Source: Escherichia phage vB_EcoM_WFH
Sequence record: NC_048194.1
Strand: one strand, 5' to 3'
Length of the DNA: 64,000 nt
Shown: positions 1 through 64,000 of the stretch, in pieces
How positions within the stretch are numbered: the stretch's first letter is position 1
Layout: every line of letters begins with the position of its first letter
Position numbers and translations under genes: made by a program
Notes under the pieces: generated by a model
What the model saw: only the letters and a program-made list of their open reading frames with translations
What the model was told of the DNA's origin: nothing
The model's database searches: none

Positions 1-726
1 CAACCAAGCCTGCGCATTATCCCCTGATCCTGTGCCACCCATGGAAGTGGGAACGATATTTTGATCAGCGACTTGTCCGAATCCAAAAGCAGATTTCATG
101 CCCTGAATGGTAGTCTGGCCTGTACCACCATTTGTGACTGGGATTACATCTTTGTCGGTGTATATTCGCACCCAATTAGACCAAGCCGATGATGCAGCGG
201 TGTATCTTCTTTGGTGCAGCGTGTTATTGGAATAAGTTGTATATCTTTGGATGCAACTTTCTGTGGCAACGCCTGTTTGTAGCACCTCAAGAACTCCCGC
301 TTGTTCCACAGGGTAGTTAAGGGGTGCCGATGCGCCAGCATTTGCTGATTGGTGATATTGACCAAACCATGAACCAGTCAACGCATTAAGGTTGATGCCT
401 GAGGGAATCTCTCCAAAGTTTCGGACAGTACCCGTCAAAGTCGCAGCAGTTGTTCGAATGGAAAGTAAATCACCAGCCGCCCATGCACGCGCTGCAGTAC
501 CTTCCTGTGCACGCTGCACGGTCAGGACGTTTCCAACCACGGCTGTTACTGTGACTATTTCAAATTGTAGGCCTGTTGCAGCGTCGACGATTGTCGCCAC
601 TACACGCTCGTTTGCGCCCAAGGTCGGAAAGTCTGACCCTGAGCGAATTGTGATTGTGGTGTCTGAAGTTGTCGTTGGTTGAGCCAGCGCGACCTCAAAG
701 TTGTTTTTGAATATTAGCCTTGGCAT
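1..726 (-). CDS. tail fibre-like protein, N-terminal portion (partial; 3' end lies beyond window start)
   Basis: Hand translation of minus strand from ATG at 726-724 is open to position 1 (242 codons): MPRLIFKNNFEVALAQPTTT...; contains GGTG motifs (VTNGGTGQTT, SMGGTGSGD) and N-terminal pattern recalled from phage tail fibres. Not in ORF track because it is truncated. Confidence 0.5.
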   Translation of the reverse strand, partial: MPRLIFKNNFEVALAQPTTTSDTTITIRSGSDFPTLGANERVVATIVDAATGLQFEIVTVTAVVGNVLTVQRAQEGTAARAWAAGDLLSIRTTAATLTGTVRNFGEIPSGINLNALTGSWFGQYHQSANAGASAPLNYPVEQAGVLEVLQTGVATESCIQRYTTYSNNTLHQRRYTAASSAWSNWVRIYTDKDVIPVTNGGTGQTTIQGMKSAFGFGQVADQNIVPTSMGGTGSGDNAQAWL

Positions 727-764
727 TTTACGGTCCTCGTTTTGTCGACAACCGTATTATAGCC

Positions 765-1106
765 TTAATTTCTTTTGAGAGGAATATGACGGTTGCTGTC
801 ATTATTTGGTTTAATAATGAGCATAAAAACGATTAGAAAGATGATGGCTGATATACTTAATTCAATCAGCGCGGCCTGAGATATGGATTGATCTTCATGA
901 TACTGCTTTTGCATTTCTGCTTTCTTCTGAGCGCAAACTTCAGGCGATATATAATCACCTTTTGAGTTGCCATAATAAATCTCGCCATTTTCAGAAATAA
1001 GTCTGCCGCAAATATCCGTATCGGCCTTTGCACTCGACATCATAATAACGGTGCCGATGATAGCAGCAATTGTCCAGATTAGCAGTTGTGATAAAGTATT
1101 GTTCAT
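765..1106 (-). CDS. small membrane protein (two predicted TM segments)
   Basis: Internal ATG of track ORF 765..1313; product MNNTLSQLLIWTIAAIIGTVIMM... with hydrophobic N- and C-terminal stretches; upstream part of track ORF reads as non-coding and holds a stem-loop. Confidence 0.35.
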   Translation of the reverse strand: MNNTLSQLLIWTIAAIIGTVIMMSSAKADTDICGRLISENGEIYYGNSKGDYISPEVCAQKKAEMQKQYHEDQSISQAALIELSISAIIFLIVFMLIIKPNNDSNRHIPLKRN

Positions 1107-1123
1107 GATAACCTCTTTAAATT

Positions 1124-1144
1124 CCCTTCCCATATCGGGAAGGG
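1124..1144 (-). terminator. intergenic stem-loop (CCCTTCCC/GGGAAGGG), terminator or attenuator-like
   Basis: Inverted repeat cccttccc-atatcg-ggaaggg between minus-strand genes; A/T-rich flank on minus strand. Confidence 0.3.
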
Positions 1145-1302
1145 CGAATGTTATTTTAAGCGAAAGAATAGGCGAGTGCCACACAGAGAGTCCCAACGGC
1201 CTTCGCCGTCCCATATCGACCCAACACCAGCGGTGATTGGGCCAGCAGAATTGGCGGCATTGGCCCAGGCGAGACGTTTTAATTTCCAACTGCACCAACG
1301 AT

Positions 1303-1554
1303 TCACAGTTCATCTCCAGACTTCAAAATTAATCCCGCATAGATTATTGCCAAAGCTAAAGGCGCACCGCCGCCAGCCTCTCTATTCTCTTTGATTTGAA
1401 GAGTATCTTTTAGGAATTGAAGCTGAACGTTGAATTCATTTTCAATTCCAAGCACTCCAGCTAATTCTTTTACAGAATCTGCATATGCCTTGTCTATCAC
1501 TTCTTTTGGCACCGTTAAGGTTAATTCATTTGCCATTTTCTTTCCACTCCACAA
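1303..1554 (-). CDS. hypothetical protein (83 aa)
   Basis: Track ORF in co-directional minus-strand array; no recognisable motif. Confidence 0.35.
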   Translation of the reverse strand: MWSGKKMANELTLTVPKEVIDKAYADSVKELAGVLGIENEFNVQLQFLKDTLQIKENREAGGGAPLALAIIYAGLILKSGDEL

Positions 1555-1747
1555 ATGTACTGCTACTTGTTTCTCTATTTAGCAGGTATCTGCCGCGCAT
1601 TCCACGAAGGCTGAACTCAACCGTCGATGGATTAGATTTTGAAAGCCACATCACTTGACCGTCGAACGGTCCGCCAACGCATGTGTATTTGGCCTTTGGC
1701 TCACTCCTTTTGGGCCTCTTTGCCCGCTCTTTGATTGATAGTCTCAT
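1526..1747 (-). CDS. hypothetical protein (73 aa, basic)
   Basis: Track ORF, overlaps neighbours by few codons as in phage operons. Confidence 0.3.
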   Translation of the reverse strand: MRLSIKERAKRPKRSEPKAKYTCVGGPFDGQVMWLSKSNPSTVEFSLRGMRGRYLLNRETSSSTFVEWKENGK

Positions 1748-1962
1748 CAGTCTTCACCTTGAGATTCAAGACAAGTAAGAACAAGCCACGTCATCGGAAG
1801 AATCAAAACCAGAGAAATAAGTGACCAAATGGACCAACACAAGATGACAGACTTGAATGTATGAACGTCGCCAAACACAGCAGTGAAACAAAATCCCATC
1901 ACGAAAGCAAGCGCGGTGGAGTGGTTGTCAATGGCTTTGATGGCACGGTCGATGAGTTTCAT
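1747..1962 (-). CDS. small membrane protein (holin-like topology, function unproven)
   Basis: 71 aa, two hydrophobic segments (ALAFVMGFCFTAVFG and ILCWSIWSLISLVLILPMTWLVL), short charged C-terminus. Confidence 0.35.
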   Translation of the reverse strand: MKLIDRAIKAIDNHSTALAFVMGFCFTAVFGDVHTFKSVILCWSIWSLISLVLILPMTWLVLTCLESQGED

Positions 1963-2043
1963 ATTACCTCCGGTTTTGAGTTAATATGATTATAACGCAG
2001 AGTTTCAGAAAGGCAAACTTTTTGTGAATTTAAATTAAAAAAA

Positions 2044-2064
2044 TGGCCAGATTATTTCTGGCCA
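2044..2064. other. stem-loop TGGCCAG-n7-CTGGCCA flanked by A-run, in divergent intergenic region
   Basis: Perfect 7-bp inverted repeat with A7 upstream on plus strand (U-tract on minus-strand reading). Confidence 0.3.
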
Positions 2065-2109
2065 AAAGATCACCCTTTATCCACTACTAAGCTGGAATCA
2101 CAATTTTAC

Positions 2110-2139
2110 TTGATATAGCTGTCGCAAGCAAACTATAAT
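2110..2139 (+). promoter_or_regulatory. sigma70-like promoter (TTGATA-18-TATAAT)
   Basis: Near-consensus -35 and -10 hexamers with 18-bp spacer; the -10 abuts the annotated ATG at 2140, so the true terminase start may be the downstream Met at 2173. Confidence 0.45.
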
Positions 2140-3600
2140 ATGAATAAAATATTAACACATAATTGGAAAGTCATGTACCAGTTGAATCCTGCTTTAAGAG
2201 AAGTCTGGAAGACGAAAGCGCGATACAAAGTCATATACGGCGGTCGTGCATCTTCCAAATCGCACGATGCCGCTGGTTTTGCTATTTATTTGGCGGCAAA
2301 CTTCAAATTAAAATTCCTTTGCGTTCGACAATTCCAGAACAAGATTTCTGAATCAGTATATACGCTATTAAAAGATAAAATAGAGATTTCTGATTTTAAA
2401 GACGAGTTCAACTTATTAAAAAACTCTATTGAACACAAAAGAACAAAATCTGAATTTTTATTTTACGGTATCGCACGCAACGTTGACGAAATCAAATCAA
2501 CAGAAGGTGTTGATGTTCTTTGGCTTGAAGAAGCGCATGCACTGACTGAAGAGCAATGGGACATTATTGAGCCGACAATTCGTAAGGAAGGGTCCGAAAT
2601 ATGGATCATATTTAACCCTGATGAAGAGGCTGATTTCGTCTACCAGAACTTTGTTATGCGACCGCCGAAAAATGCCATCGTTAAGAAGATTAACTGGCAG
2701 GACAATCCATTCTTGTCGCAAACAATGCTGGATGTTATCGCTGGCATGTATGAGCGCGACCCGAAAAAGGCAGAACACGTTTATGGCGGAGTGCCGAAGA
2801 CAGGTGGCGATAAGTCGGTCATCAACCGTGCATTCGTCAAAGCCGCGCTAAACCTCCACAAACACCCTACGCTGGGATGGAGCTTGTCAGGGTCTAACCG
2901 TATAGGCTTCGACGTGGCGGACGACGGCGACGACTTAAACGCCACAGCGTTTGTCACAGGCAACGTATTACGTGGCATCAAGACATGGGAAGGTCTGGAA
3001 GATGAATTGCTTAAGTCCGCAAGCGGAGTCTGGAAAGACGCATTGACATTCGGCGCATCAATCACCTATGACGCCATCGGTGTTGGTGCATTTGCTGGTT
3101 CAAAATTTGATGAGCTTAATGAGTATGCAATCCATGAAAATCCAACATTCCCAAGAATCGAATTTAATGCGTTCAACGCGCAAGGTGCTGTTGATGATCC
3201 TGATGACGTCTTCCTTGAGTTACCACACGTTGAAATACTCAATAAAGACCATTTCGCAAACATAAAAGCGCAAAAATGGACTGAGATTGCCGAACGATTC
3301 AGAAAGACATATGAGTATGCGACAGGGCAAGCCGTATATCCGACCGATGAGTTGATTTCCATCGACACAGACGGCATCCCAGAACTTGGTATTCCCGCTT
3401 GGTCTGCGGAAGAAATTGAGACGTTTCTTTTTGAGATGTCAGCACCGCGCAAAGACACGTCTGTACTTGGCAAGTTCAAAGTTGAATCGAAAAAGGATAT
3501 GGCAAAGCGTGGAGTCAAATCGCCTAACAAAGCGGACGCAGCAATCATGGCATTGATGAAACCAATTGTTGCAGCATCCGGCTTCTTCTCTAACCTTTAA
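2140..3600 (+). CDS. terL: terminase large subunit
   Basis: 486 aa; N-terminal ATPase Walker A-like KVIYGGRASSKSHDAAGF, Walker B-like VDVLWLEEAH, C-terminal nuclease-like region; first large gene of the morphogenesis block. Confidence 0.85.
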   Translation: MNKILTHNWKVMYQLNPALREVWKTKARYKVIYGGRASSKSHDAAGFAIYLAANFKLKFLCVRQFQNKISESVYTLLKDKIEISDFKDEFNLLKNSIEHKRTKSEFLFYGIARNVDEIKSTEGVDVLWLEEAHALTEEQWDIIEPTIRKEGSEIWIIFNPDEEADFVYQNFVMRPPKNAIVKKINWQDNPFLSQTMLDVIAGMYERDPKKAEHVYGGVPKTGGDKSVINRAFVKAALNLHKHPTLGWSLSGSNRIGFDVADDGDDLNATAFVTGNVLRGIKTWEGLEDELLKSASGVWKDALTFGASITYDAIGVGAFAGSKFDELNEYAIHENPTFPRIEFNAFNAQGAVDDPDDVFLELPHVEILNKDHFANIKAQKWTEIAERFRKTYEYATGQAVYPTDELISIDTDGIPELGIPAWSAEEIETFLFEMSAPRKDTSVLGKFKVESKKDMAKRGVKSPNKADAAIMALMKPIVAASGFFSNL

Positions 3601-3603
3601 CAA

Positions 3604-3843
3604 TTAAAGCATTCCGTGCTGAAGGTCGAGCTTTCTTGCGGCAAACGACCTGGCACGGAATCGCTTACCCGCCCTTACTGCCTGTCGAATTTTCTTTTGC
3701 AAACACTTACGGTCAAAATCGTTGCGGTCGACGGCTTCGAGTAAATCGCGACGCAGTGCACCCAGTGTCGACTTTTCGGAGACTTCAACGCCCAGCGCGG
3801 CTGCAACATCTTTCAAAACATCGAGTTCGGTTAAAGTTCTCAT
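3604..3843 (-). CDS. hypothetical protein with Rho-N/SAP-like N-terminal helix motif
   Basis: 79 aa, MRTLTELDVLKDVAAALGVEV... resembles Rho_N-type helix-extended-helix; basic C-terminus; opposite strand to flanking terL/portal. Confidence 0.4.
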   Translation of the reverse strand: MRTLTELDVLKDVAAALGVEVSEKSTLGALRRDLLEAVDRNDFDRKCLQKKIRQAVRAGKRFRARSFAARKLDLQHGML

Positions 3844-8723: not shown

Positions 8724-8756
8724 ATCGCCTGGCAATGGATTGCCGCAGGATTTTAC

Positions 8757-9040
8757 GCGTATAATGACGTATCATCCGTATCAAGTAAGTAGTTGTTTTC
8801 AAAAGAATCTTACGGATGATACGGATGATACGCGTTGCCGCGATACTTTATAGGAATTCAAATAAATTAATTTAAAATTATATATCTAATTTAATTTTAT
8901 TTTTTTATAAACTCTTATATATGAAAAGTATCCGTATCATCCGTATCATCCGTAGCACACCAGTGATAGCGCGGCTTATACACCGATACGGATAAAAATA
9001 CGCCTCATTTTATCCGTATCATCCGTATCACACTAATTAA
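8757..9040. repeat. iteron module copy A: tandem/inverted 9-mers (CCGTATCAT / TTATCCGTA) flanking an AT-rich spacer
   Basis: gcgtataatgacgta..., cttacggatgatacggatgatacgcg, ~90-bp AT-rich tract, then tccgtatcatccgtatcatccgta and ttatccgtatcatccgtatca; 45-bp core nearly identical (2 mismatches) to 60229-60273. Confidence 0.7.
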
Positions 9041-9145
9041 GGCGCGACTATATCGGTTGTTATACATATTCAAACCATAATTATTGTTTGCCTAAGTTTT
9101 TTTCATTAGATATAATACACAATACTTATTTGAGGGTGGATGCGA

Positions 9146-10558
9146 ATGCAAACGGCACGCGAAATTGACAAAAATGGATTCTTGACGATTGTGGGTTGTC
9201 CCATTTCGTCATTTGGCATTTTTGATTATTCTGCAGGTCAGGTTGGACTTGATGGTGATCCGAATCGCATCGTAAAAGTTTATCGCCCAGAGTCAGCGGT
9301 GAAAGACCCCGAAGCGATAGATTCATTCAAAAATATCCCTTTCATCGACAATCACGAAATGCTTTCTGGATTCGAAGGTGATGAGGATAACACAGCACCC
9401 GAAGAGTATGGCGTTGATGGCGTTCTAACTGGCAATGTTTATTATGACAAGCCATGGATGCGCGGCGACCTTAAAGTTTTTAGCCGTCGTCTGAAGAAGG
9501 CCATCGATTCTGGAAAGGTTGACTTGTCTTTGGGCTATGACTGTGAATTCATCATACAGTCTGGAGAGTTTGACGGGCAGCCGTATGAAGTGGTACAGAC
9601 AACTCTTCGCGGCAACCACATTGCTCTCGTGGACGTTGGTCGAGTACCAGGTGCACGGGTGCTGGATGGTCGTTGCTTTGACCATCTTTGTTTGACGACT
9701 GTAACACCATCCAACGAGGATTTAGACATGCCAAAACCGTTAAAAGGTAAAGCGCGTGATAATGCTGTTGAACAGCTGAAATCACTGATCCCTGCGCTCG
9801 AACAATTTCTGAATGAAGAGAGCACCGAAGCTGCTCATCAGGACGAAGTTGAAGTGAAAGCAGAAGAGAAGGATTCAACCGAAGAACGTGAAGAAGTGAT
9901 GGTTGATCCAGAAGTCAAAGCAGAAGCTGAAGAGACTCCAGAAGGTGAAGAGAAGTTTGAAGTTGAAACTGAATCTCACGCTGGCGGCGAGCTTCCGCAA
10001 CTGATCAGCCAAATCGAAGCACTTATTGCAAAACTGAAAGGTGGCGCGGTAGGTGATGAAGAAGAAGTTGAAGCCGAAGTCAAAGACGAAGAAGTTGAAG
10101 TCAAGGCTGAAGATGTATCACCTTGCGACAAAGCTGAAGATGTGGTTAGCGGCCTGCAAAACAGCAACGTAAAGGGGGCTTCGGTCGAAAAAGATGACAA
10201 ACCGACAAAAGCGGCGAAAGCGTCGCCAGGTCCAGCAAAAGGGGAACACTCAATGGCATCTGATTCAGCAGTTGCTGCTTTCTACGCTGATTCTGCTCGT
10301 AAGAATAGCCTCTACCAGCGCCTGTCTAAAGTTGTTGGTGCCTTTGATCATGCAACTATGGACTCCAAGTCCGTAGCGAAATATGGCGCTAAAAAGTTAG
10401 GCTTGAAGTGCGTTGATGGTGCTGAGTTTGACGTGGTGGATAATTATCTGCGCGGCGTTGAACACGGTCAAAAACAGCGTGTAGTCGCAAAACAAAAGGC
10501 CGCTGCGGATTCTGCAGCAACTGACGAAGCATTTGAAGCTTGGTTGAAAGGGGAATAA
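9146..10558 (+). CDS. putative scaffolding protein (possibly protease-scaffold fusion)
   Basis: Position between MuF-like and capsid genes; long highly acidic Glu-rich central region (EEREEVMVDPEVKAEAEETPEGEEKFEVETE...); RBS gagggtgg. Confidence 0.45.
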   Translation: MQTAREIDKNGFLTIVGCPISSFGIFDYSAGQVGLDGDPNRIVKVYRPESAVKDPEAIDSFKNIPFIDNHEMLSGFEGDEDNTAPEEYGVDGVLTGNVYYDKPWMRGDLKVFSRRLKKAIDSGKVDLSLGYDCEFIIQSGEFDGQPYEVVQTTLRGNHIALVDVGRVPGARVLDGRCFDHLCLTTVTPSNEDLDMPKPLKGKARDNAVEQLKSLIPALEQFLNEESTEAAHQDEVEVKAEEKDSTEEREEVMVDPEVKAEAEETPEGEEKFEVETESHAGGELPQLISQIEALIAKLKGGAVGDEEEVEAEVKDEEVEVKAEDVSPCDKAEDVVSGLQNSNVKGASVEKDDKPTKAAKASPGPAKGEHSMASDSAVAAFYADSARKNSLYQRLSKVVGAFDHATMDSKSVAKYGAKKLGLKCVDGAEFDVVDNYLRGVEHGQKQRVVAKQKAAADSAATDEAFEAWLKGE

Positions 10559-45759: not shown

Positions 45760-46599
45760 TTATTCCGCTTGATCACCGTCTTCGGCATCTTCGTTGGGTT
45801 CAACATCGACAAACTCGATGTGGCCCATCTCTTCCAGCTTGCTCAGGTAGGAGCGAACGGAAGCGCCAAACAGTTGATCTTTAACTTTTTCGCCCAGCTC
45901 ATCGATAGACTGCGCCACGCCAACTTCGCCTTCTTTGATCGCCGCCAGAACGCGTCCACGGGTGGAATGCTCTTGCGGCTGGCTCAGGCCATTGCCAGTG
46001 TAGATGAAGTGAGTAGCTTTTGCACGACGTTGACCGTTTGCCTTTTTAGCGGCCTTACGTTCTGCGATGGCTTTGCGACGTTCTTCAGCTTCTTTCTTAC
46101 GCTGTTCTTTCTGTTGTTCTGCAGCTTCTTTCGCCGCAATCTTAGCAGCTTCACGCTCTGCCTTGCGTTTCGCTTTAGCTTCTTCTTTGGCCTTCTCTTT
46201 TTCGGCCTTCGCTGCAGCACGGGCTTGATCACGCTCTGCTTTCTTAGCAGCAGCTTGTTCAGCTTTCAGGCGCTTGGCTTCTTCTTTAGCCTTTGCCTTT
46301 TCGATTTCTTTTGCTGCTTTAGCGGCTTCACGCTCTGCTTTCTTAGCAGCAGCCTTTTCTGCACGCTCTTTAGCTTTCTTAGCTGCTTCTTCAGCACGCT
46401 TCTGAGCCTTCTCATCAGCAGCCTGCTTGCGTTTCAGGGCAGCTTCTTCACGCTTGGCTTGTTTTTCCTGCTCACGCTTCTGGCGTTTTTCTTCGGCTTC
46501 TTTCTTTTTAGCCAGACGTTTTTCTTCAGCCACGCGACGGCGTTCTGCTGCAGCTGCTTGCTTTTCTTCTTTAGATAATACTTTGATTGCTTCGGCCAT
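45760..46599 (-). CDS. K/A/E/R-rich coiled-coil protein with C-terminal globular domain
   Basis: ATG at 46599 (track start is GTG two codons earlier); ~200 aa of low-complexity charged helix (AEEKRQKREQEKQAKREEAALKRK...), then ~80-aa domain (..GRVLAAIKEGEVGVAQSIDELGEKVKDQLFGASVRSYLSKLEEMGHIEF..). Confidence 0.6.
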   Translation of the reverse strand: MAEAIKVLSKEEKQAAAAERRRVAEEKRLAKKKEAEEKRQKREQEKQAKREEAALKRKQAADEKAQKRAEEAAKKAKERAEKAAAKKAEREAAKAAKEIEKAKAKEEAKRLKAEQAAAKKAERDQARAAAKAEKEKAKEEAKAKRKAEREAAKIAAKEAAEQQKEQRKKEAEERRKAIAERKAAKKANGQRRAKATHFIYTGNGLSQPQEHSTRGRVLAAIKEGEVGVAQSIDELGEKVKDQLFGASVRSYLSKLEEMGHIEFVDVEPNEDAEDGDQAE

Positions 46600-55148: not shown

Positions 55149-55153
55149 ATATC

Positions 55154-55185
55154 AAAAAGGTGAGCTAAATGCTTGCCTTTTCTTT
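55154..55185 (+). terminator. intrinsic terminator, copy 1 of a duplicated element (AAAAAGGTGAGC-TAAAT-GCTTGCCTTTT)
   Basis: Hairpin with G:U-tolerant stem followed by TTTTCTTTT; near-identical copy at 56692-56725. Confidence 0.55.
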
Positions 55186-55233
55186 TATCAATACTTATAC
55201 TCTTTTCATCAAGACTAACAAGTGAGGTGAATT

Positions 55234-56689: not shown

Positions 56690-56691
56690 TT

Positions 56692-56725
56692 CAAAAAGGT
56701 GAGCTAAATGCTTGCCTTTTTATTT
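56692..56725 (+). terminator. intrinsic terminator, copy 2 of duplicated element
   Basis: caaaaaggtgagctaaatgcttgccttttt followed by T-rich tract; near-identical to 55154-55185. Confidence 0.55.
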
Positions 56726-57550: not shown

Positions 57551-58054
57551 ATGAAAATTGAACAACTCGAAGCAGTATTGGAAATGGCCGTAAAGGCAGG
57601 CGCAATCAAAAGCTATCGTCGCGAGAAGTCAGACGATGATGCGAACTTTTGCCGCAACTTCTATATCGTCGGCAACCTTAACGACCACTACACCATCGAG
57701 TGGTATATCAATATCATGACACTTAAGTCGCGCACAATGGAGCTTTGGTGCGATGACATCTGCTTATCTAACACCCATCCATCCTACGACGTTGCGTTGG
57801 CATTCTATTACGGAAGCCGTCAACCTGTCGCCCACATCGGAGAGAAGCATGAGCACCTTAAGGCACGACCAGAGGAATCAATGGAAGGCTGGATTGAATG
57901 GGCTGGAGGAAAGAATCCGGTGCCTGGTAAGAAGGTCATGTTGATGTGGAGGAATGAAGAAAAGTCGTCGTATTCGTCCAATTCGGAGGGATGGCTATGG
58001 CACCACAACGGAAGCGTTTATGACATCATCGCTTATCGCGTCGTGGAGGAATAA
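57551..58054 (+). CDS. hypothetical protein with C-terminal GGxNPVPGK module (paralogue 1)
   Basis: 167 aa; C-terminal WIEWAGGKNPVPGKKVMLMWRNEEKSSYSSNSEGWLWHHNGSVYDIIAYRVVEE shared with 58938..59369. Confidence 0.45.
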   Translation: MKIEQLEAVLEMAVKAGAIKSYRREKSDDDANFCRNFYIVGNLNDHYTIEWYINIMTLKSRTMELWCDDICLSNTHPSYDVALAFYYGSRQPVAHIGEKHEHLKARPEESMEGWIEWAGGKNPVPGKKVMLMWRNEEKSSYSSNSEGWLWHHNGSVYDIIAYRVVEE

Positions 58055-58724: not shown

Positions 58725-58954
58725 CTGATAAACAATACGCAGTCGGACAACGTGACATCGAGCAACTCGACGAAGGCGGCTATTATACGCGCCACATCCA
58801 TGCCATGACGCATGAAGGACTTTACAGCAAGTCAGACATCGCCGCTGAACTGGCCCACCGTGACTTGCAAATTGACATGTTGCATCTTGCTCTTGAGAAG
58901 CAAACGCAAATCGCTATTGAAATTTTGGAGAAGTTAAATGATACAACGTTATGA
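58721..58954 (+). CDS. hypothetical protein (77 aa)
   Basis: ATGA overlap. Confidence 0.4.
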   Translation: MTDKQYAVGQRDIEQLDEGGYYTRHIHAMTHEGLYSKSDIAAELAHRDLQIDMLHLALEKQTQIAIEILEKLNDTTL

Positions 58955-59369
58955 TTTGACATACGATGTGGCGACAGAAGATTTCGACATCACTCCTGTT
59001 CCAGAAAGTCACGAAGGACGTTTTGTTGCATATGAGGACTACGCCGCGCTGGAAGCGAAATATAGTGAAGCGCAACGCGAGTTGGTTGCATTACGCTCAC
59101 AGGTCCGTGATGCGTCTGCGCTCGTTAAGCAGTTGCATGACGTCGTTGCTACTATAGGCGTGGATGCTGATGCGCCGAAGGAGGAAGCGTGGACCGTGTG
59201 GCATGGTGGAGAGAATCCGGTGCCTGGTAAGATGGTGGTGTTTGAATTGCGTTTCGGATATAAATCTAAATCGCCTGCTCTTTCAGATGATTTGAGATGG
59301 AAACGTAAGATGATTGATTGCCCTTCTGCATCAGACATCATAAAGTATCGCGTTGTTAAGGAGGGGTGA
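58938..59369 (+). CDS. hypothetical protein with C-terminal GGxNPVPGK module (paralogue 2)
   Basis: 143 aa; C-terminal WTVWHGGENPVPGKMVVFELRFGYKSKSPALSDDLRWKRKMIDCPSASDIIKYRVVKEG. Confidence 0.45.
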   Translation: MIQRYDLTYDVATEDFDITPVPESHEGRFVAYEDYAALEAKYSEAQRELVALRSQVRDASALVKQLHDVVATIGVDADAPKEEAWTVWHGGENPVPGKMVVFELRFGYKSKSPALSDDLRWKRKMIDCPSASDIIKYRVVKEG

Positions 59370-59818
59370 TGGGTAAACGCCTTATCGCCGCTGGTTGGGC
59401 CATACCGAAGTGGGGTCATCGTGCGCATTACTTTGACGAAGGAGAAGTGCAAAGCCTTTGTGGTCGCGCAACGTATTTCGGTGATGAGCGCGTCAGCGGT
59501 GATTATATCGACTCGCTTTTAGGTAAAGGTGATTGCAAGAAGTGTCAGAATATATTAAGAGATATTCTTACGCAAAAAGGATTGCTTGAGCTTGATGAAT
59601 CGGAAGAAGTAATTGAACTTAAGCTGGAAGCAAATTACCTTATTTATACGTTCAAGAACTATTACGCAACTAATATGCGCTCAAAAATGAGCGAGGAAGT
59701 AATAGAAAATGTGTTCACCTACAATCCGCTAAGGATGAATAAAACCAAATTGAAGAAGTTTAATATAATGTTAAGGAAAGAATTTAAAAGGCTAGGAGTG
59801 AAGAATTTTATATTTTAA
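59369..59818 (+). CDS. hypothetical protein with CxxC...CxxC pairs and Lys-rich C-terminus
   Basis: ATG at 59369 with RBS aggaggggtg (track GTG 59366); ...SLCGRATYF...GDCKKCQNIL...; last gene before strong terminator. Confidence 0.4.
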   Translation: MGKRLIAAGWAIPKWGHRAHYFDEGEVQSLCGRATYFGDERVSGDYIDSLLGKGDCKKCQNILRDILTQKGLLELDESEEVIELKLEANYLIYTFKNYYATNMRSKMSEEVIENVFTYNPLRMNKTKLKKFNIMLRKEFKRLGVKNFIF

Positions 59819-59834
59819 TAGTGATTAATGTTAA

Positions 59835-59859
59835 GAGGGCCGATTGGCCCTTTTTGTTT
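59835..59859 (+). terminator. intrinsic terminator (AGGGCC-GATT-GGCCCT + TTTTTGTTTG)
   Basis: GC-rich hairpin followed by U-tract, ends the long plus-strand small-gene array. Confidence 0.7.
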
Positions 59860-60115
59860 GTCCATGTGGTGTGAGTCTTTATTATCGGATAAAGCGATTG
59901 ATTTGTGTAAATCTATTAGAGGATTGTGGGAAGTGAGTATTGTGACGTGAATTTTGTGCCTTGGATATGTGTGCGAATTTGGAAGAATATTGTACTGTGG
60001 TGTTGTGGGATTGGAGAGGGAATCACTAGGTTTTGGGGCGTGTACCGTGGTGTGTGGGCCTGTAGGCTGCGCCGTCTCTGGGATTGCCGCTTGAAATTAA
60101 AAAGGAGATATAGTT
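59860..60115 (+). other. strand-asymmetric G+T-rich non-coding tract
   Basis: About 250 bp dominated by GTG/TGG/GGG runs on plus strand (C-rich, G-poor on minus strand); the only ORF is a Cys/Trp-rich artefact. Confidence 0.5.
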
Positions 60116-60143
60116 AGCTGGCTAACCTTACGCATAGAATTTA

Positions 60144-60440
60144 AGCGTATAATGACGTAAGATTTGGACCTATCCGTAGTTCACTCCACACACTTCTATG
60201 GTGCGCCGCGACTGGGTTCAGTGGTACATCTTACGGATGATACGGATGATACGCGTCGCCGCTATACTTTATACAACTTTGAAAAAAACAATTAACTCCA
60301 TTTTGAATTAATTTAAATTAATTTTTTTCTACATCCTCATACTTATACTAAACTTATATTTATACGTATTATCCGTAAGATATAAGTAAAAACAAAGACT
60401 TGCGGCAATACGGATGATACGTCATGATACGCTTCAACCA
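60144..60440. repeat. iteron module copy B (homologous to 8757-9040)
   Basis: gcgtataatgacgta...; tcttacggatgatacggatgatacgcgtcgccgctatactttata (45-bp core, 2 mismatches vs copy A); AT-rich spacer; ttatccgtaag and caatacggatgatacgtcatgatacgc. Confidence 0.7.
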
Positions 60441-60578
60441 GCCAGCAGCGGCTAAGTCATTGATTTGCATAACAAGCGGCGAAAGGGATGGATTTCTTTT
60501 ATGCGTATCAAACAGTACACCACGCACCACGGTCCGATATTCATTCAGCACTATGATTTATGTACTTTTACAGCCAAT

Positions 60579-60605
60579 TTGAACATCAATCTGCACTTGA
60601 ATATA
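60579..60605 (+). promoter_or_regulatory. promoter-like element (TTGAAC ... TGnAATAAT) upstream of TerS-like gene
   Basis: -35-like TTGAAC and extended -10-like TGAATAAT about 50 bp upstream of ATG 60658, followed by two tandem ATTTGCACTATG repeats. Confidence 0.35.
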
Positions 60606-60657
60606 ATGTTCAATCATTGTATAATTCACACTATTAATTTGCACTATGGGATTTGCA

Positions 60658-61133
60658 CTATGAGTCAAGATTATGTAGCAATGCCTGAAGACTTTGAAGA
60701 CCCGCGATTTGCAGAGCATAATCAGGCATTATTCGATGAGTTCATTGACCTTGTTATTCAGGGCCATGACATGCGCGCAGCTTTTGCACTAGTATTTGGC
60801 ATGGAGGTTGCGACCGATAACTACACTGGCCAGCGAATCCTGTGCACTCAGCGCAACCCGTACTACAAGATGCGCTACAAAAAGCGCATGGAAGAAATGC
60901 CATTGAAGGAATTGTGGAGCGTAAAAAGTTCCATCCACAATTTAGTGAAGCTTGTGCGTGATCCAGAAGTCGCGGCGTCAGCCAAGCTTAATGCCATTCG
61001 TGAACTGAATATCATCTACGGCATCACGATGATTGATGAAAATGGCAATAGTAAAATGGGCCGTTCCATGGACGATTTCTACAAGGATTTTGGAGAGGCA
61101 GCCAAAGAGGGTGAGCAATTCTCCCGCCACTAG
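60658..61133 (+). CDS. terminase small subunit-like DNA-binding protein (tentative)
   Basis: ATG at 60658 (track ORF 60465 starts upstream in AT-rich non-coding DNA); 158 aa; ...NQALFDEFIDLVIQGHDMRAAFALVFG...RILCTQRNPYYKMRYKK... resembles TerS N-terminal HTH pattern; start codon overlaps a repeat copy. Confidence 0.3.
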
Positions 61134-61150
61134 CCAATTTGCACTATAAA

Positions 61151-61188
61151 ACGGCCCTAGAACACATTTTCTCCACTTCTAGGGCCGT
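61151..61188 (+). terminator. stem-loop (ACGGCCCTAGAA-n14-TTCTAGGGCCGT) downstream of TerS-like gene
   Basis: 12-bp stem; no strong U-tract. Confidence 0.45.
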
Positions 61189-61561
61189 TGGTAATACGAC
61201 GGGGAAGGCTGCAACCATGAACGCGTTAGAAAGTGTATTATTATAAGTCATCTTTTAGTCACTTTACGTAACAATTTACGACCTTCCGCCGTCCAGTCGA
61301 ACGACTCCACCAGCAGATTTGCACTATAACCTAAGACGATGCGCCCCTTCTCGTTATCGACCCGCCAACAAGTCTCGAATAGCATTCGATTTGCACTATT
61401 AACTATCGCCGCAACGCGCGTTGGGTAAGCGCAATTTGCACTATGGTCGTAAAGGGATAAGGTGCGACCACTGCCGATGGACAACGTAGCGATGAGAATA
61501 AGCGTATTCATAAGCCACCAATTTGCACTATGAAAAGCGACCCCGAAGGGCCGCCATTCGA

Positions 61562-62188
61562 TTAGATAATCTGGAAGGTGTAGGACTTGTTGCCGAACTC
61601 GAAGTTCAAGCGCCCAGCTTCCTTAAGCTTCATGCGGAAGCGAATATGTTTGCTATCCGGTAAGCCCAGCGCGGCGAACGCTACGCGGACCGATTTGAAC
61701 TCGCCTACACCCTCGACCATAACGGCGTTACGGGTGAGACGCTTTTGCGCCACTTCCTTGTTATCCCAACTTTTTGCAATACCTTCGCTATTAGAACGGC
61801 GATGGGAAGGAGTTCCATTTTGCACTACGCAATTTGCACTATCGTTTAGGCCGCTCTTAACGAAGGCTTCATACTCTTCGTCGGTCATCGCGTCGAGTTC
61901 TTCCTGAGTCGGCTCGGCCTTTTTAACGACCGCACGCGCCTTATGCGTTTTTACATCGCTGGACACTTCCTCGCGCGGCTTCGCGTCGGGGATGGGCAAT
62001 TCGTTGGACGGCTCATCGAGCGCGTTTAAGGACTCGATTAACGCGATGACGCGAGTCTCAGCGGTGCGACGGTCCACAAACTTCTTAATCGGTTTTGAGC
62101 CGGAGTTGGCATTATAGAATGCAACGAGGTCGGCGGTCTTAGTTGCGATAACGTCGCCGCTAGTAGAAAAGCGATTTAAGCTAACCAT
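61562..62188 (-). CDS. hypothetical protein (208 aa)
   Basis: Track ORF in CpG-rich block; contains two ATTTGCACTAT-type motifs within its coding sequence (61817-61842); no recognised domain. Confidence 0.4.
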   Translation of the reverse strand: MVSLNRFSTSGDVIATKTADLVAFYNANSGSKPIKKFVDRRTAETRVIALIESLNALDEPSNELPIPDAKPREEVSSDVKTHKARAVVKKAEPTQEELDAMTDEEYEAFVKSGLNDSANCVVQNGTPSHRRSNSEGIAKSWDNKEVAQKRLTRNAVMVEGVGEFKSVRVAFAALGLPDSKHIRFRMKLKEAGRLNFEFGNKSYTFQII

Positions 62189-62268
62189 AATAAACTCCTA
62201 TTTGTTAGGGCGCTAGGCGCGAAAGAATTTTATTAAAGCGCCGCGCACGACGCTCTAAAAATCCTCTC

Positions 62269-62583
62269 TTACTCTTCGTCGTCTTCGATTAATTCGAAGG
62301 CGAAGGCATAAGCTTTGCTATCGTAATTAACTAAAACGGCGAGTTCGAACTCGTTAATAAACGCCGTTTTACCGCATAAATTTAATTCCGCATCGACTTC
62401 GAAGAATCCGTTTTCGTCGCGCTCTAAGCGAGAAGCAGCGAGTTGCTCGATTACCGTCGCGTCGTTAATTTCTTCGCCTAAGCGAACGCCGGAGAATTTC
62501 GCGAGAATTTCGCCGTAAGTAAGCGTAACACCCTGGACTTCGGCGGTTGCGTTTTCGAGGGTGAAGCGGGTAACGATAGCCAT
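62269..62583 (-). CDS. small acidic protein, paralogue C (104 aa)
   Basis: RBS aggag; very acidic (ends ...FELIEDDEE); similar size and charge to 62808..63110 and 63217..63507; driven by minus-strand copy of shared promoter module. Confidence 0.45.
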   Translation of the reverse strand: MAIVTRFTLENATAEVQGVTLTYGEILAKFSGVRLGEEINDATVIEQLAASRLERDENGFFEVDAELNLCGKTAFINEFELAVLVNYDSKAYAFAFELIEDDEE

Positions 62584-62651
62584 TTTAAACTCCTAGTTGG
62601 GAGAGGCGTTAACGACCTATTCGTTAACTCATCCCGTCCCGATATGAGTAC

Positions 62652-62679
62652 ATTATAATATAGTGTAGAAAAAAGTAAA
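62652..62679 (-). promoter_or_regulatory. sigma70-like promoter, minus-strand copy of shared module (TTTACT-16-TATAAT)
   Basis: Reverse complement of 62634-62686 reads AAAGTGCTTTACT...TTATAAT...ATATCGGGACGGG, matching the two plus-strand copies. Confidence 0.45.
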
Positions 62680-62723
62680 GCACTTTTTCGATAAAAATGC
62701 GATAAATTATTTTATCTTTTTTC

Positions 62724-62751
62724 TTTACTTCTTCGTACACTCGCGTATACT
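62724..62751 (+). promoter_or_regulatory. sigma70-like promoter, plus-strand copy 1 (TTTACT-16-TATACT)
   Basis: CTTTACTTCTTCGTACACT core shared with 63121-63149; followed by ATATCGAGACGGG. Confidence 0.45.
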
Positions 62752-62807
62752 TGTTTATATCGAGACGGGCGATGGCCCTTTCTTCTACTAGCATCGGGAG
62801 CTTTATT

Positions 62808-63110
62808 ATGACTACTTTAATCTCTTCCATCCTTACTTACGACGAAGACCGCTTAACCGTTCGCTCTCTTATCGCCGCCGTTAACGCGGAACTAGAATCT
62901 AGCGCCATCAAGGTCCGTGCCGTTGCCTTCGTCGGCCTTTCCTTCGACGATATTAAGTATGCAGAGTATAGCGCCATTCGCGTTGTTACTACCGACGATA
63001 ACGCCGTTACCCTTATCGAGACGGTTACGCCGCGCGGCGAAGCGTTAATTATCGTCGAGTATATCGACGTAGAAGGCGATAAAGCTTATAAATATTTTAT
63101 CGCAGAATAA
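62808..63110 (+). CDS. small acidic protein, paralogue A (100 aa)
   Basis: ATG at 62808 with RBS gggag (track start 62751 upstream); MTTLISSILTYDEDRLTVRSL... Confidence 0.45.
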   Translation: MTTLISSILTYDEDRLTVRSLIAAVNAELESSAIKVRAVAFVGLSFDDIKYAEYSAIRVVTTDDNAVTLIETVTPRGEALIIVEYIDVEGDKAYKYFIAE

Positions 63111-63120
63111 CGAAAAGTGC

Positions 63121-63149
63121 TTTACTTCTTCGTACACTAAGACTATAAT
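63121..63149 (+). promoter_or_regulatory. sigma70-like promoter, plus-strand copy 2 (TTTACT-17-TATAAT)
   Basis: AAAGTGCTTTACTTCTTCGTACACT...TATAAT...ATATCGAGAGGGG. Confidence 0.5.
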
Positions 63150-63216
63150 GTTTTATATCGAGAGGGGATGAGGTAGCGAATAGGTCGCTACCCTCCCGAC
63201 TAACTAGGAGAATATT

Positions 63217-63507
63217 ATGATTACTTTAGCCGCTATCCGTTCCGCTCGCGTCGAAACTTCCGAAAACTCTAACGTATTTGGCGAAAAACTTAAAAACGTT
63301 TATCTCTTTAACGTAGATGCGACTATCGAAGAGCTTCATAGTCCTATCGATTTTAGCGAATTTACGGAACTCGAAGAGGAAGATATTACTACCTTCCGCG
63401 TTACTATCGAAGGTAAGGTTTATTTTGCTACGGAGTTCGGCGGCGAATATCTCGCGGTATCCGAAGGCGAAGGCCGTTACTCTTTCTTTAAAATCGTCTC
63501 CTTATAA
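63217..63507 (+). CDS. small acidic protein, paralogue B (96 aa)
   Basis: ATG with RBS aggag; MITLAAIRSARVETSENSNVFGEKLKNVYLFNVDATIEELHSPIDFSEFTELEEEDITTF... Confidence 0.45.
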   Translation: MITLAAIRSARVETSENSNVFGEKLKNVYLFNVDATIEELHSPIDFSEFTELEEEDITTFRVTIEGKVYFATEFGGEYLAVSEGEGRYSFFKIVSL

Positions 63508-63527
63508 TACCCTTCCGTTACTAATAG

Positions 63528-63553
63528 GCCGCGCTTAGTCGCGGCTTTTCTTC
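63528..63553 (+). terminator. intrinsic terminator (GCCGCG-CTTAGT-CGCGGC + TTTTCTTCG)
   Basis: GC stem plus U-tract directly after paralogue B. Confidence 0.6.
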
Positions 63554-63960
63554 GTCCCTATCTCGATGCGCTTCTCCGCGAAAACTCCTTTATCCTTCCC
63601 TTCGTCGTCGCATAATCTTCGTCGAGATGCGCCTTAGTTCGCATAACAGGTATTACGTTAAATGGAGAACATCGCGTAAGTCCTTGTTTTATATAGACAC
63701 CTATATCGGACCGTTAGGGAGGGTCGCGCAAGTCGTTGTTTTATAAAGGCGCAAAACTTTCCCTTCGTTCCGAACTAAAACGAGAAATATGCCGACCCTT
63801 CGCCCGAAAATAGTACGCATGCGAAATTACATGTATCTAGAATAATCCCCACCGATATTATCCTACACGCAATCATTAGCTTTCGAATCATTATGCTTCA
63901 TACTATTATGCGTCGAATCATTCGCTTTCTAATTGTAACGCTGGAAACTGTAACGGCGAT
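63554..63960. repeat. ORF-free tract rich in short direct repeats at window end
   Basis: No ORF of 60 aa or more; recurring short motifs (AATCATT x3, TTCGAATCATT x2, TTGTTTTATA x2, GATGCGC x2, CGCATAA x2, TGTAACG x2); window ends inside it. Confidence 0.4.
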
Positions 63961-64000
63961 TGATTATTGCGTTCGTGTGGTTTTTAGGGCATGGGTCTTT

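What the first reader, a model, noticed from the sequence alone, without database searches (positions are those of the whole stretch)
60144..60440. Iteron module B: second copy of the same element 51 kb away, upstream of the TerS-like gene
Same organisation as copy A: gcgTATAATgacgta, the 45-bp core tcttacggatgatacggatgatacgcgtcgccgctatactttata (2 mismatches to copy A), AT-rich spacer with aattaatttaaattaattttttt, then ttatccgtaag and caATACGGATGATACGtcATGATACGc. Flanking sequences are unrelated, so this is a dispersed duplicated regulatory module, not a large duplication or concatemer junction. Two copies suggest either two origins or a shared control element for the head-assembly and packaging operons.
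Basis: seen in the sequence. Interest (0 to 1): 0.6.

Follow-up and report, generated by a model that had tools for sequence, protein, structure and literature searches.

The report
Phage packaging-start site with distant twin
The repeat-rich element upstream of the small terminase gene is where this E. coli phage's DNA is cut to start packaging, and related phages in five genera keep a co-evolving second copy of it upstream of their head protease gene, for a purpose still unknown.

Summary
The 45-bp core (60229-60273) recurs at 8808-8852 with 2 mismatches, and all ten hits to the repeat 14-mer in the window lie in the two modules.

The window is a Wifcevirus (PB1-like E. coli myophage). The downstream ORF (60660-61133) is a small terminase: it matches PDB 7UXE at E=9e-33. 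The left end of the ~3.7-kb direct terminal repeat maps to 60299|60300, inside module B's AT-rich spacer. This rests on four end-defined relative records, including a PhageTerm call, and the window itself ends at the right repeat boundary.

The two-copy layout (terS-upstream plus the gap upstream of the head maturation protease gene) recurs in Myosmarvirus, Pbunavirus, a Salmonella phage and Bcepfunavirus. Each genus has its own private repeat word (E 4e-19 to 4e-34). In Pbunavirus the experimentally supported pac site lies inside module B.

Best reading: terminase recognition repeats flank the cut, and copy A is an uncut second binding module. An origin or a shared promoter is less supported. 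My searches found no description of copy A, and its role is unknown. This is a new variant of a known kind.

The parts
60137..60437 (.). Module B as a whole: the stretch similar to module A, containing the genome's left physical end
60145..60159 (+). GCGTATAATGACGTA box. It is a variant of the repeat unit with TACG spaced 10 bp, not a convincing promoter. Present only in the window/FEC19-type left arm
   Evidence: (I3)
60231..60253 (+). Left repeat array TTACGGATGATACGGATGATACG: 2.5 units of the 9-bp TACGGATGA repeat, ending 46 bp left of the cut
   Evidence: Kept in all three otherwise unrelated left-arm sequence types in the genus
60254..60273 (+). GC box plus TATA-like tail of the 45-bp core (CGTCGCCGCTATACTTTATA)
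   Evidence: Not repeated elsewhere in the window
60274..60361 (.). AT-rich spacer that contains the cut
60290..60304 (+). Invariant junction AATTAACTCC|ATTTT. The DTR left end (genome left end) lies between 60299 and 60300
   Evidence: WFC record position 1. Mansfield PhageTerm DTR 1-3673 and record end. terS at 360/361 in four end-defined records (WFC, Ro157lw, SP13, Mansfield) and the TerS tblastn match at 361 in unannotated ECP_WGS_SA1. Invariant in 10 genomes. Unique in the window
60362..60378 (-). Right-arm repeat in inverted orientation (ATACGTATTATCCGTAAG), starting 62 bp right of the cut
   Evidence: (I2, I8)
60408..60432 (+). Right-arm repeats ATACGGATGATACGTCATGATACGC. Includes the reverse complement of the 60145 box with 1 mismatch at 60418-60432
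60300..64000 (.). Direct terminal repeat, right-hand copy in the source record (3,701 bp). The window ends exactly at the right boundary
   Evidence: the window's last bases equal Mansfield's PhageTerm right boundary. (PQ604604 offset 7283 + 64000 = its record length of 71,283)
60579..60625 (+). Overlapping sigma-70-like promoters for terS, outside the shared module
60660..61133 (+). terS, small terminase subunit (157 aa)
   Evidence: 7UXE E217 TerS, E=9e-33. (Mansfield annotation). Pfam and PHROGs give no function
59833..59854 (+). Intrinsic terminator closing the upstream operon
8749..9030 (.). Module A, the paralogous copy. Sub-elements: box 8757-8771; inverted units 8768-8783; + array 8810-8832; core tail 8833-8852; AT spacer 8853-8929; - array 8930-8957; + unit 8985-8997; - array 9008-9030
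9088..9116 (+). Sigma-70-like promoter of the head maturation protease operon, outside the shared module
9140..10558 (+). Head maturation protease gene (DUF2213; phrog_3778)

Best explanation
Module B is the packaging-initiation region of a Wifcevirus genome.

Shown: terminase products have their left end at 60299|60300, in the AT-rich spacer, 360 bp upstream of the terS gene. This is the left edge of a 3.7-kb direct terminal repeat. The spacer is flanked by arrays of a 9-bp unit (TACGGATGA, with TACG every 9-10 bp, so on one face of the helix) in opposite orientations.

Inferred: these units are the recognition sites that position the packaging machinery. The most likely binder is the ring-shaped small terminase encoded next door. 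TerL would then cut at the invariant AATTAACTCC|ATTTT, and packaging would proceed rightward through terS.

Module A carries the same units in the same layout but lacks the junction sequence. I infer that it is a second, uncut binding site for the same factor. Its role is not established. The most economical idea is a partner site that the factor bridges to B (twin-ring synapsis as proposed for T4 TerS), or one that couples terminase occupancy to the head protease/scaffold/capsid operon.
For: 1. Terminus. WFC record position 1 aligns to window 60300, and its two repeat copies (3,784 bp) are identical. Mansfield was opened at a PhageTerm DTR boundary at the same base. terS starts at 360/361 in four end-defined records (WFC, Ro157lw, SP13, Mansfield), and the TerS tblastn match begins at 361 in the unannotated ECP_WGS_SA1 record. 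The window ends at the right boundary.
2. terS identity: E=9e-33 to PDB 7UXE.
3. Footprint. Left of the cut the genus has three unrelated sequence types, yet all keep the repeat units 50-70 bp from the cut. The junction is invariant. Bas101 has lost exactly one 9-bp unit in A.
4. Other genera. Serratia MTx has a PhageTerm DTR left end inside its own A/B-homologous module, with TerS 377 bp away. In Pbunavirus, the JG024 pac site at 59,376 (restriction pac fragment, PMC10913387) is the same nucleotide as the Ab27 fixed read end (PMC4482731), and it lies inside the Pbunavirus module B, 601 bp upstream of terS.
5. The A/B pairing recurs with private repeat words in MTx (2e-30), Ab27 (4e-34), PCSE1 (1e-21) and BcepF1 (4e-19). 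In each case A is the only hit in the other DNA held for that genome.
6. A is not a record terminus in any of 27 Wifcevirus records and lacks the junction sequence.
Against: No protein has been shown to bind the repeats. The homologous E217 TerS showed no appreciable DNA binding in vitro (review PMC9611059). Classical pac and cos sites are single-copy, so the second copy is not explained by the packaging model alone. Inverted repeat arrays around an AT-rich spacer are also the textbook look of a replication origin, and in MTx, Ab27 and PCSE1 the gene just upstream of B is the DNA primase. One paper remarks that the AT-rich Pbunavirus pac region 'could be a replication origin' (PMC6521218). The termini come from relatives' records, not from reads of this genome. 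Xanthomonas phage FoX7 has the TerS homolog but no second copy, so A is dispensable in at least one lineage.
Confidence: 0.55

Rival explanations
1. Two replication origins, or one bipartite origin. The 9-bp units would be iterons for a phage initiator, such as the primase-helicase. The AT-rich spacer would be the unwinding element. The genome end would form in B because replication or end duplication starts there. This resembles P4 ori plus crr, or the T7 replication promoters near the ends.
For: Inverted repeat arrays flank an 80-100 bp AT-rich spacer. B follows the DNA primase gene directly in MTx, Ab27, PCSE1 and BcepF1. Rightward initiation at the left DTR boundary would neatly duplicate the repeat. 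PMC6521218 raises the origin idea for the AT-rich Pbunavirus pac region.
Against: No DnaA boxes in either module. In this genome about 4 kb of small ORFs separate the replication genes from B. Cumulative GC skew turns at about 28 and 47 kb, not at A or B, and Pbunavirus skew minima fall in the DNA polymerase region (PMC12390725). The one adjacency conserved in all five genera is B to terS, and the only measured property of B is a packaging end.
Confidence: 0.2
2. A shared transcriptional control module. One phage regulator would bind the repeats upstream of both terS and the head protease/scaffold/capsid operon to co-regulate packaging and head assembly. The terminus lying in B would be incidental.
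For: Both copies lie 60-150 bp upstream of the sigma-70-like promoters of terS and of the protease operon. The position upstream of the protease gene is conserved in five genera. LMA2 annotates a predicted sigma-70 promoter inside the Pbunavirus module A. Phage 14-1 has phage-specific promoters that need extra factors (PMC10914365).
Against: No part of the module recurs at other late operons. A 200-370 bp module with an internal AT-rich spacer is far larger than an operator. Ends mapped by independent groups in three genera fall in the middle of B, which is hard to call incidental.
Confidence: 0.15
3. Copy A is itself a second, weaker packaging start site that is cut by terminase.
For: It has the same repeat layout as B. 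The Pbunavirus E215 record opens inside module A, 13 nt from the position homologous to the B cut. Random expectation is about 0.1 among about 300 records.
Against: None of the 27 Wifcevirus records opens in A. PhageTerm gave a single DTR for Mansfield and MTx. A lacks the invariant junction sequence. No method is stated for the E215 ends, and it is a single case. A cut 16 kb into a fixed-end genome would give defective particles.
Confidence: 0.08
4. A neutral relic of a duplication, kept alike by gene conversion and without function.
For: Direct repeats can be homogenised by the intense recombination that occurs in phage infections.
Against: The pair persists at the same two syntenic positions in five genera whose TerS proteins are only 31-39% identical, while the sequence itself has been replaced in each lineage. 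Within Wifcevirus, A is 95-99% conserved, as well as coding DNA. Non-functional 200-370 bp direct repeats flanking essential genes should be lost.
Confidence: 0.02

Closest known systems
SPP1 pac (pacL-pacC-pacR) and P1 pac (hexamer repeats on both sides of the cut); from my own knowledge, not tested here
   Same: Short repeated recognition elements lie on both sides of the cleavage region. The site sits at or just upstream of the terS gene. The cut starts packaging toward terS.
   Different: Those sites are single-copy per genome and start headful series. Here the same module marks a fixed left end of a 3.7-kb terminal repeat (it is a headful pac in the Pbunavirus relatives), and there is a second, co-evolving copy 16-21 kb away.
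T4 TerS (gp16) twin-ring pac synapsis model (PMC10893049)
   Same: Two dispersed homologous TerS target sequences in one genome are proposed to be brought together by stacked TerS rings to license packaging. E217 TerS, the solved homolog, has a C-terminal helix proposed to promote higher-order ring assemblies (PMC9611059).
   Different: The T4 sites are short sequences inside coding genes a few kb apart, inferred from gene-amplification genetics. Here the sites are 200-370 bp noncoding modules, conserved as a pair across genera. No binding or synapsis has been shown.
Lambda cos (cosQ-cosN-cosB with R sites for gpNu1); from my own knowledge
   Same: The nicking site is flanked by repeated TerS-binding elements immediately upstream of the terS gene.
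   Different: Lambda R sites lie on one side only, the ends are cohesive rather than a long terminal repeat, and there is no distant second copy.
Satellite phage P4 ori plus crr; from my own knowledge
   Same: Two dispersed modules share the same short repeats, both are required in cis and bound by one protein, and one lies next to the primase-helicase gene.
   Different: P4's are replication elements bound by gp-alpha. Here the only measured property is a packaging end, and terS adjacency is what is conserved.
Annotated Wifcevirus/Pbunavirus termini (Mansfield DTR, PMC6753283; JG024 pac site, PMC10913387; SCUT-S1 pac in AT-rich region, PMC6521218)
   Same: The same genomic position. Module B is the region those papers place the end or pac site in.
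   Different: None of these describes the repeat arrays. None of the papers I could search mentions the second copy upstream of the protease gene or its conservation.

Membership tests
Terminase recognition/cleavage region (pac- or DTR-end-type) | A physical end of virion DNA maps inside it | tested here: met
   By homology to relatives with defined ends: WFC, Mansfield PhageTerm, Ro157lw and SP13. The window ends at the other DTR boundary. The same holds for MTx and Pbunavirus.
Terminase recognition/cleavage region (pac- or DTR-end-type) | Lies in or next to the small terminase gene | tested here: met
   terS at 60660-61133, 360 bp from the cut. Adjacency is conserved in five genera.
Terminase recognition/cleavage region (pac- or DTR-end-type) | Repeated recognition elements flank the cut | tested here: met
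Terminase recognition/cleavage region (pac- or DTR-end-type) | TerS (or holoterminase) binds the repeats specifically | not testable with these tools
   No binding data. E217 TerS showed no appreciable DNA binding in vitro (PMC9611059), although TerS specificity is often not reproduced in vitro (PMC7672466).
Terminase recognition/cleavage region (pac- or DTR-end-type) | One site per genome unit | tested here: not met
   A second homologous module lies at 8749-9030. This is the unusual feature.
Iteron-type replication origin | Arrays of a short repeat next to an AT-rich unwinding region | tested here: met
   The units are 9 bp and in inverted arrays, and the binding protein is unknown.
Iteron-type replication origin | DnaA boxes and/or an adjacent initiator gene | tested here: not met
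   No DnaA box with up to 1 mismatch in either module. The neighbours are terS and small ORFs. The primase gene is adjacent only in other genera.
Iteron-type replication origin | Compositional-skew inflection at the site | tested here: not met
   Cumulative GC-skew extremes at about 28 and 47 kb. This is weak evidence, because skew in phages mostly follows transcription direction.
Iteron-type replication origin | Replication initiates there | not testable with these tools
   Needs marker-frequency or 2D-gel data.
Sigma-70 promoter/operator module | -35/-10 hexamers with 16-18 bp spacing at the quoted TATAAT | tested here: not met
   The scans find promoters only at 60579-60625 and 9088-9116, outside the shared module. 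The box is absent from B in WFC-type and Bas98-type genomes.
Sigma-70 promoter/operator module | The motif recurs at other co-regulated operons | tested here: not met
   only the two modules.
T4-type twin pac synapsis | Two dispersed homologous terminase target sequences in one genome | tested here: inconclusive
   Two homologous modules exist and co-vary. That both are terminase targets is inferred.
T4-type twin pac synapsis | TerS double rings bridging the two sites | not testable with these tools
   Only a literature hint for E217 TerS ring stacking (PMC9611059).
Known structured RNA (Rfam) | Match to a curated covariance model | tested here: not met
   No hit near the gathering score in 59700-60750.

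The most novel reading that the evidence does not exclude
PB1-like phages (Wifcevirus, Myosmarvirus, Pbunavirus, Bcepfunavirus and relatives) use a two-site packaging signal. Small-terminase rings bound at the cut site (B) must pair with a second, uncut site (A) 16-21 kb away, upstream of the head protease/scaffold/capsid operon. The pairing would either license the initiating cut or tie packaging to head production. This would be a natural, conserved instance of the twin-ring pac synapsis idea that has so far rested on T4 genetics and imaging.
Probability: 0.2. Interest if true: 0.8.

Novelty: new variant of a known kind. Interest (0 to 1): 0.62.

Why it matters
How small terminases find their site is still poorly understood, and in vitro specificity is often missing, including for E217 TerS, the solved homolog of this protein. 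This finding gives a defined candidate recognition code: 9-bp units on one helical face, on both sides of a mapped cut. It also gives four natural re-codings of that signal in sister genera, which is ideal material for swap experiments.

The conserved second copy is unexplained by standard pac, cos or DTR models. It makes the T4 two-site synapsis hypothesis directly testable in phages that are used therapeutically (Pbunavirus) or that replicate unusually fast (Wifcevirus).

There is also a practical point. Genome rebooting and engineering of these phages should avoid disrupting either module. The same module serves as a fixed DTR end in two genera and as a headful pac site in a third.

Tried and rejected
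- Pfam and PHROGs gave no function for the ORF downstream of B. The PDB sequence search settled it as TerS.
- Rfam found nothing.
- The sigma-70 promoter reading of GCGTATAAT was rejected: there is no -35 partner, the box is not conserved in B across the genus, and it resembles the repeat unit.
- I looked for a third copy of the repeats at the right DTR boundary and found none.
- I looked for DnaA boxes and found none.
- GC skew gave no signal at A or B.
- An IMG/VR scan with the 16-mer returned only the known Wifcevirus genomes, one metagenomic relative and unrelated single hits, so it added little diversity.
- The E217 TerS paper (PMC10026623) and the 14-1 TSS tables were not available, so I could not check TerS DNA-binding details or start sites inside the Pbunavirus modules.
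- No method was found for the E215 record ends.
- FoX7 was checked as a sixth genus and lacks the second copy.
- A conserved CAGCGGC-type box seen by eye to the right of the cut in Wifcevirus and MTx was not tested statistically, and I make no claim from it.

Full report
OBSERVATION

The sequence is as described. The 45-bp core at 60229-60273 has one other match in the window, at 8808-8852, with 2 mismatches and none expected by chance. The 14-mer ATACGGATGATACG (up to 2 mismatches) occurs 10 times, all inside the two modules, against 0.27 expected. 14 of the 20 TACGGAT words in the 64-kb window lie in about 700 bp. An unbiased repeat search ranks the A/B pair as the longest dispersed direct repeat in the window (D2). 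Similarity covers about 190-210 bp and the flanks are unrelated.

ANATOMY

Both modules share one layout. Arrays of a 9-bp unit (TACGGATGA, with TACG recurring every 9-10 bp) sit in opposite orientations on the two sides of an 80-100 bp AT-rich spacer.

- Module B: + array 60231-60253, spacer 60274-60361, - unit 60362-60378, + units 60408-60432.
- Module A: - units 8768-8783, + array 8810-8832, spacer 8853-8929, - array 8930-8957, + unit 8985-8997, - array 9008-9030.

It has no usable -35. The genes downstream have their own sigma-70-like promoters outside the shared part: 60579-60625 for the ORF at 60660, and 9088-9116 for the head maturation protease gene at 9140. A terminator at 59833-59854 ends the upstream operon. 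No Rfam family matches.

WHAT GENOME, WHAT GENE

The window is a Wifcevirus, a PB1-like E. coli myophage. 27 records carry both modules at the same two positions. The ORF at 60660-61133 has no Pfam or named PHROG hit. It matches the solved small terminase of Pseudomonas phage E217 (PDB 7UXE) at E=9e-33 over residues 3-147, and Mansfield annotates it as TerS.

THE KEY RESULT: MODULE B CONTAINS THE GENOME'S PHYSICAL LEFT END

Korf et al. report ~3.7-kb terminal repeats for WFC and WFH (PMC6563267).

- In the WFC record the two repeat copies are 3,784 bp with 0 mismatches. Record position 1 aligns to window 60300, just after ...CAATTAACTCC.
[quoted passage not shown] Its record ends at the equivalent of window 60299.
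- terS starts at 360/361 in four end-defined records: WFC, Ro157lw, SP13 and Mansfield. In the unannotated ECP_WGS_SA1 record the TerS tblastn match begins at 361.
- The window's own last bases (...GGGCATGGGTCTTT at 64000) are exactly Mansfield's right DTR boundary. The offset to the 71,283-bp record PQ604604 puts that record's end at the same base.

In this genome the terminal repeat is therefore 60300-64000 (3,701 bp), and module B straddles its left edge.

FOOTPRINTING WITHIN THE GENUS

- Left of the cut, outside the repeat, genomes fall into three unrelated sequence types: window/FEC19/ECML-117/Bas101, WFC/F13/TH32, and Bas98. Every type keeps GATACGGAT-family units 50-70 bp from the cut.
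- The junction AATTAACTCC|ATTTT is invariant in all ten genomes and unique in the window.
- Right of the cut everything is conserved.
- Module A is 95-99% identical across the genus. Bas101 has lost exactly one 9-bp unit.
- A has nothing like the junction at the homologous position 8878|8879, and no Wifcevirus record opens there.

OTHER GENERA

TerS homologs (31-39% identity) occur in Pbunavirus, Myosmarvirus, a Salmonella phage, Bcepfunavirus, Carpasinavirus and others. I BLASTed each terS-upstream region against all other DNA held for the same genome. The only significant hit was always the noncoding gap upstream of the head maturation protease gene:

- window: 9e-22
- Serratia MTx: 2e-30
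- Pbunavirus Ab27: 4e-34
- Salmonella PCSE1: 1e-21
- Burkholderia BcepF1: 4e-19

Each genus has its own private repeat words: CGAAAAG/ACTTTTC, TAATTTGG plus CCGCGAGG, AATATCGG/CGTTATA, and AACTAAG/TAGTTA. So the two-site arrangement is old, and the two copies co-evolve within each lineage. Xanthomonas FoX7 lacks both the gap and the second copy.

In MTx the PhageTerm DTR left end lies in the middle of the A/B-homologous stretch, 377 bp from its TerS gene. [quoted passage not shown] It lies inside the Pbunavirus module B, 601 bp upstream of terS. Module B is thus where packaging cuts are made in three genera, whether the product is a fixed terminal repeat or a permuted headful.

MECHANISM

Shown: the position of the end; the identity and adjacency of terS; the repeat architecture; conservation of the repeats against a changing background; and a co-varying second copy.

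Inferred: the repeats are recognition sites for the packaging machinery, most likely the TerS ring. Units at helical pitch on both sides of a cut recall SPP1 pacL/pacR and P1 pac (my own knowledge). TerL would cut at the invariant junction. A would bind the same factor without being cut.

What A is for is open. The T4 twin-ring pac synapsis model (PMC10893049) is the closest precedent for two dispersed TerS targets, and E217 TerS has features proposed to stack rings (PMC9611059). Against the binding inference, E217 TerS showed no appreciable DNA binding in vitro (PMC9611059), although this is common for TerS proteins (PMC7672466).

RIVALS

- Origin or bipartite origin. It has the right look, and B follows the primase gene in four of the five genera (not in this one). 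But there are no DnaA boxes, no skew signal, and no measured replication property. I give it about 0.2.
- Shared promoter or operator. The positions fit, but the module is too large, its sub-elements do not recur at other operons, and the mapped ends fall in its middle. About 0.15.
- Second cut site at A. The only hint is that the E215 record opens 13 nt from the homologous position. No method is stated for its ends. About 0.08.
- Neutral relic. Effectively excluded by five-genus conservation.

NOVELTY

The location of the terminus or pac site is already in database records and papers. My searches found no description of the repeat arrays, or of the conserved, co-evolving second copy upstream of the protease gene. 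The literature accessible here is incomplete. I class it as a new variant of a known kind, with moderate to high interest because it offers a concrete, swappable recognition code and a testable two-site packaging hypothesis.

Noticed in passing
window 60633-60663, 61127-61149, 61307-61329, 61822-61844: A motif TTTGCACTAT(A/G)A occurs five times inside the terminal repeat. Two copies lie immediately before the terS start codon. It may be an early-region operator or a promoter-associated element.
   Followed up: no
window 63870-63955: A different repeat set lies just inside the right DTR end: AATCATTAnGC about four times, and TGTAACG twice. There are no GATACGGAT units there, so the right end may use a different signal.
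   Followed up: partly
window 64000; L002 3784; L006 3673: The right DTR boundary is called about 110 bp apart in WFC (assembly) and in Mansfield, PQ604604 and this window, although both candidate sequences are present in both phages. The right end is therefore either phage-specific or less well defined than the left end.
   Followed up: partly
window 55152-55186 and 56691-56725: A 35-nt direct repeat at 94% identity lies between small ORFs of the accessory region.
   Followed up: no
window 57883-57942 and 59183-59242: A 60-nt repeat at 78% identity lies inside two small ORFs (57551-58054 and 58938-59369), which suggests paralogous accessory genes upstream of module B.
   Followed up: no
window 46046-46395: A cluster of imperfect 23-35 nt repeats (TTAGCAGC.TCACGCTCTGC...), probably a repetitive coding segment on the minus strand.
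   Followed up: no
L015/L060 (Pseudomonas phage E215, NC_042080, record start and end): The E215 record is opened inside the Pbunavirus module A (...aacgttc|caatagaa...), 13 nt from the position homologous to the pac cut in module B. The record ends do not overlap, and no method is given for how the ends were defined.
   Followed up: partly
L056 20082-20486 (BcepF1, EF153632): The TerS homolog on the minus strand is not annotated. The stretch is covered by three small plus-strand ORFs (BcepF1.058-.060) that are probably miscalls.
   Followed up: no
L061 606-1187 (JG024 gp77, record 59205-59786): A 582-bp ORF is annotated straight across the pac site and the repeat module, and is probably spurious. 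In the window, small ORFs over module B (for example 60424-60582, annotated in Mansfield) deserve the same doubt.
   Followed up: no
L057/L058 (Xanthomonas phage FoX7, MT161387): It has the TerS homolog but no noncoding gap upstream of the protease-like gene and no second copy of the terS-upstream DNA. The twin site is therefore not universal among phages with this TerS family.
   Followed up: yes
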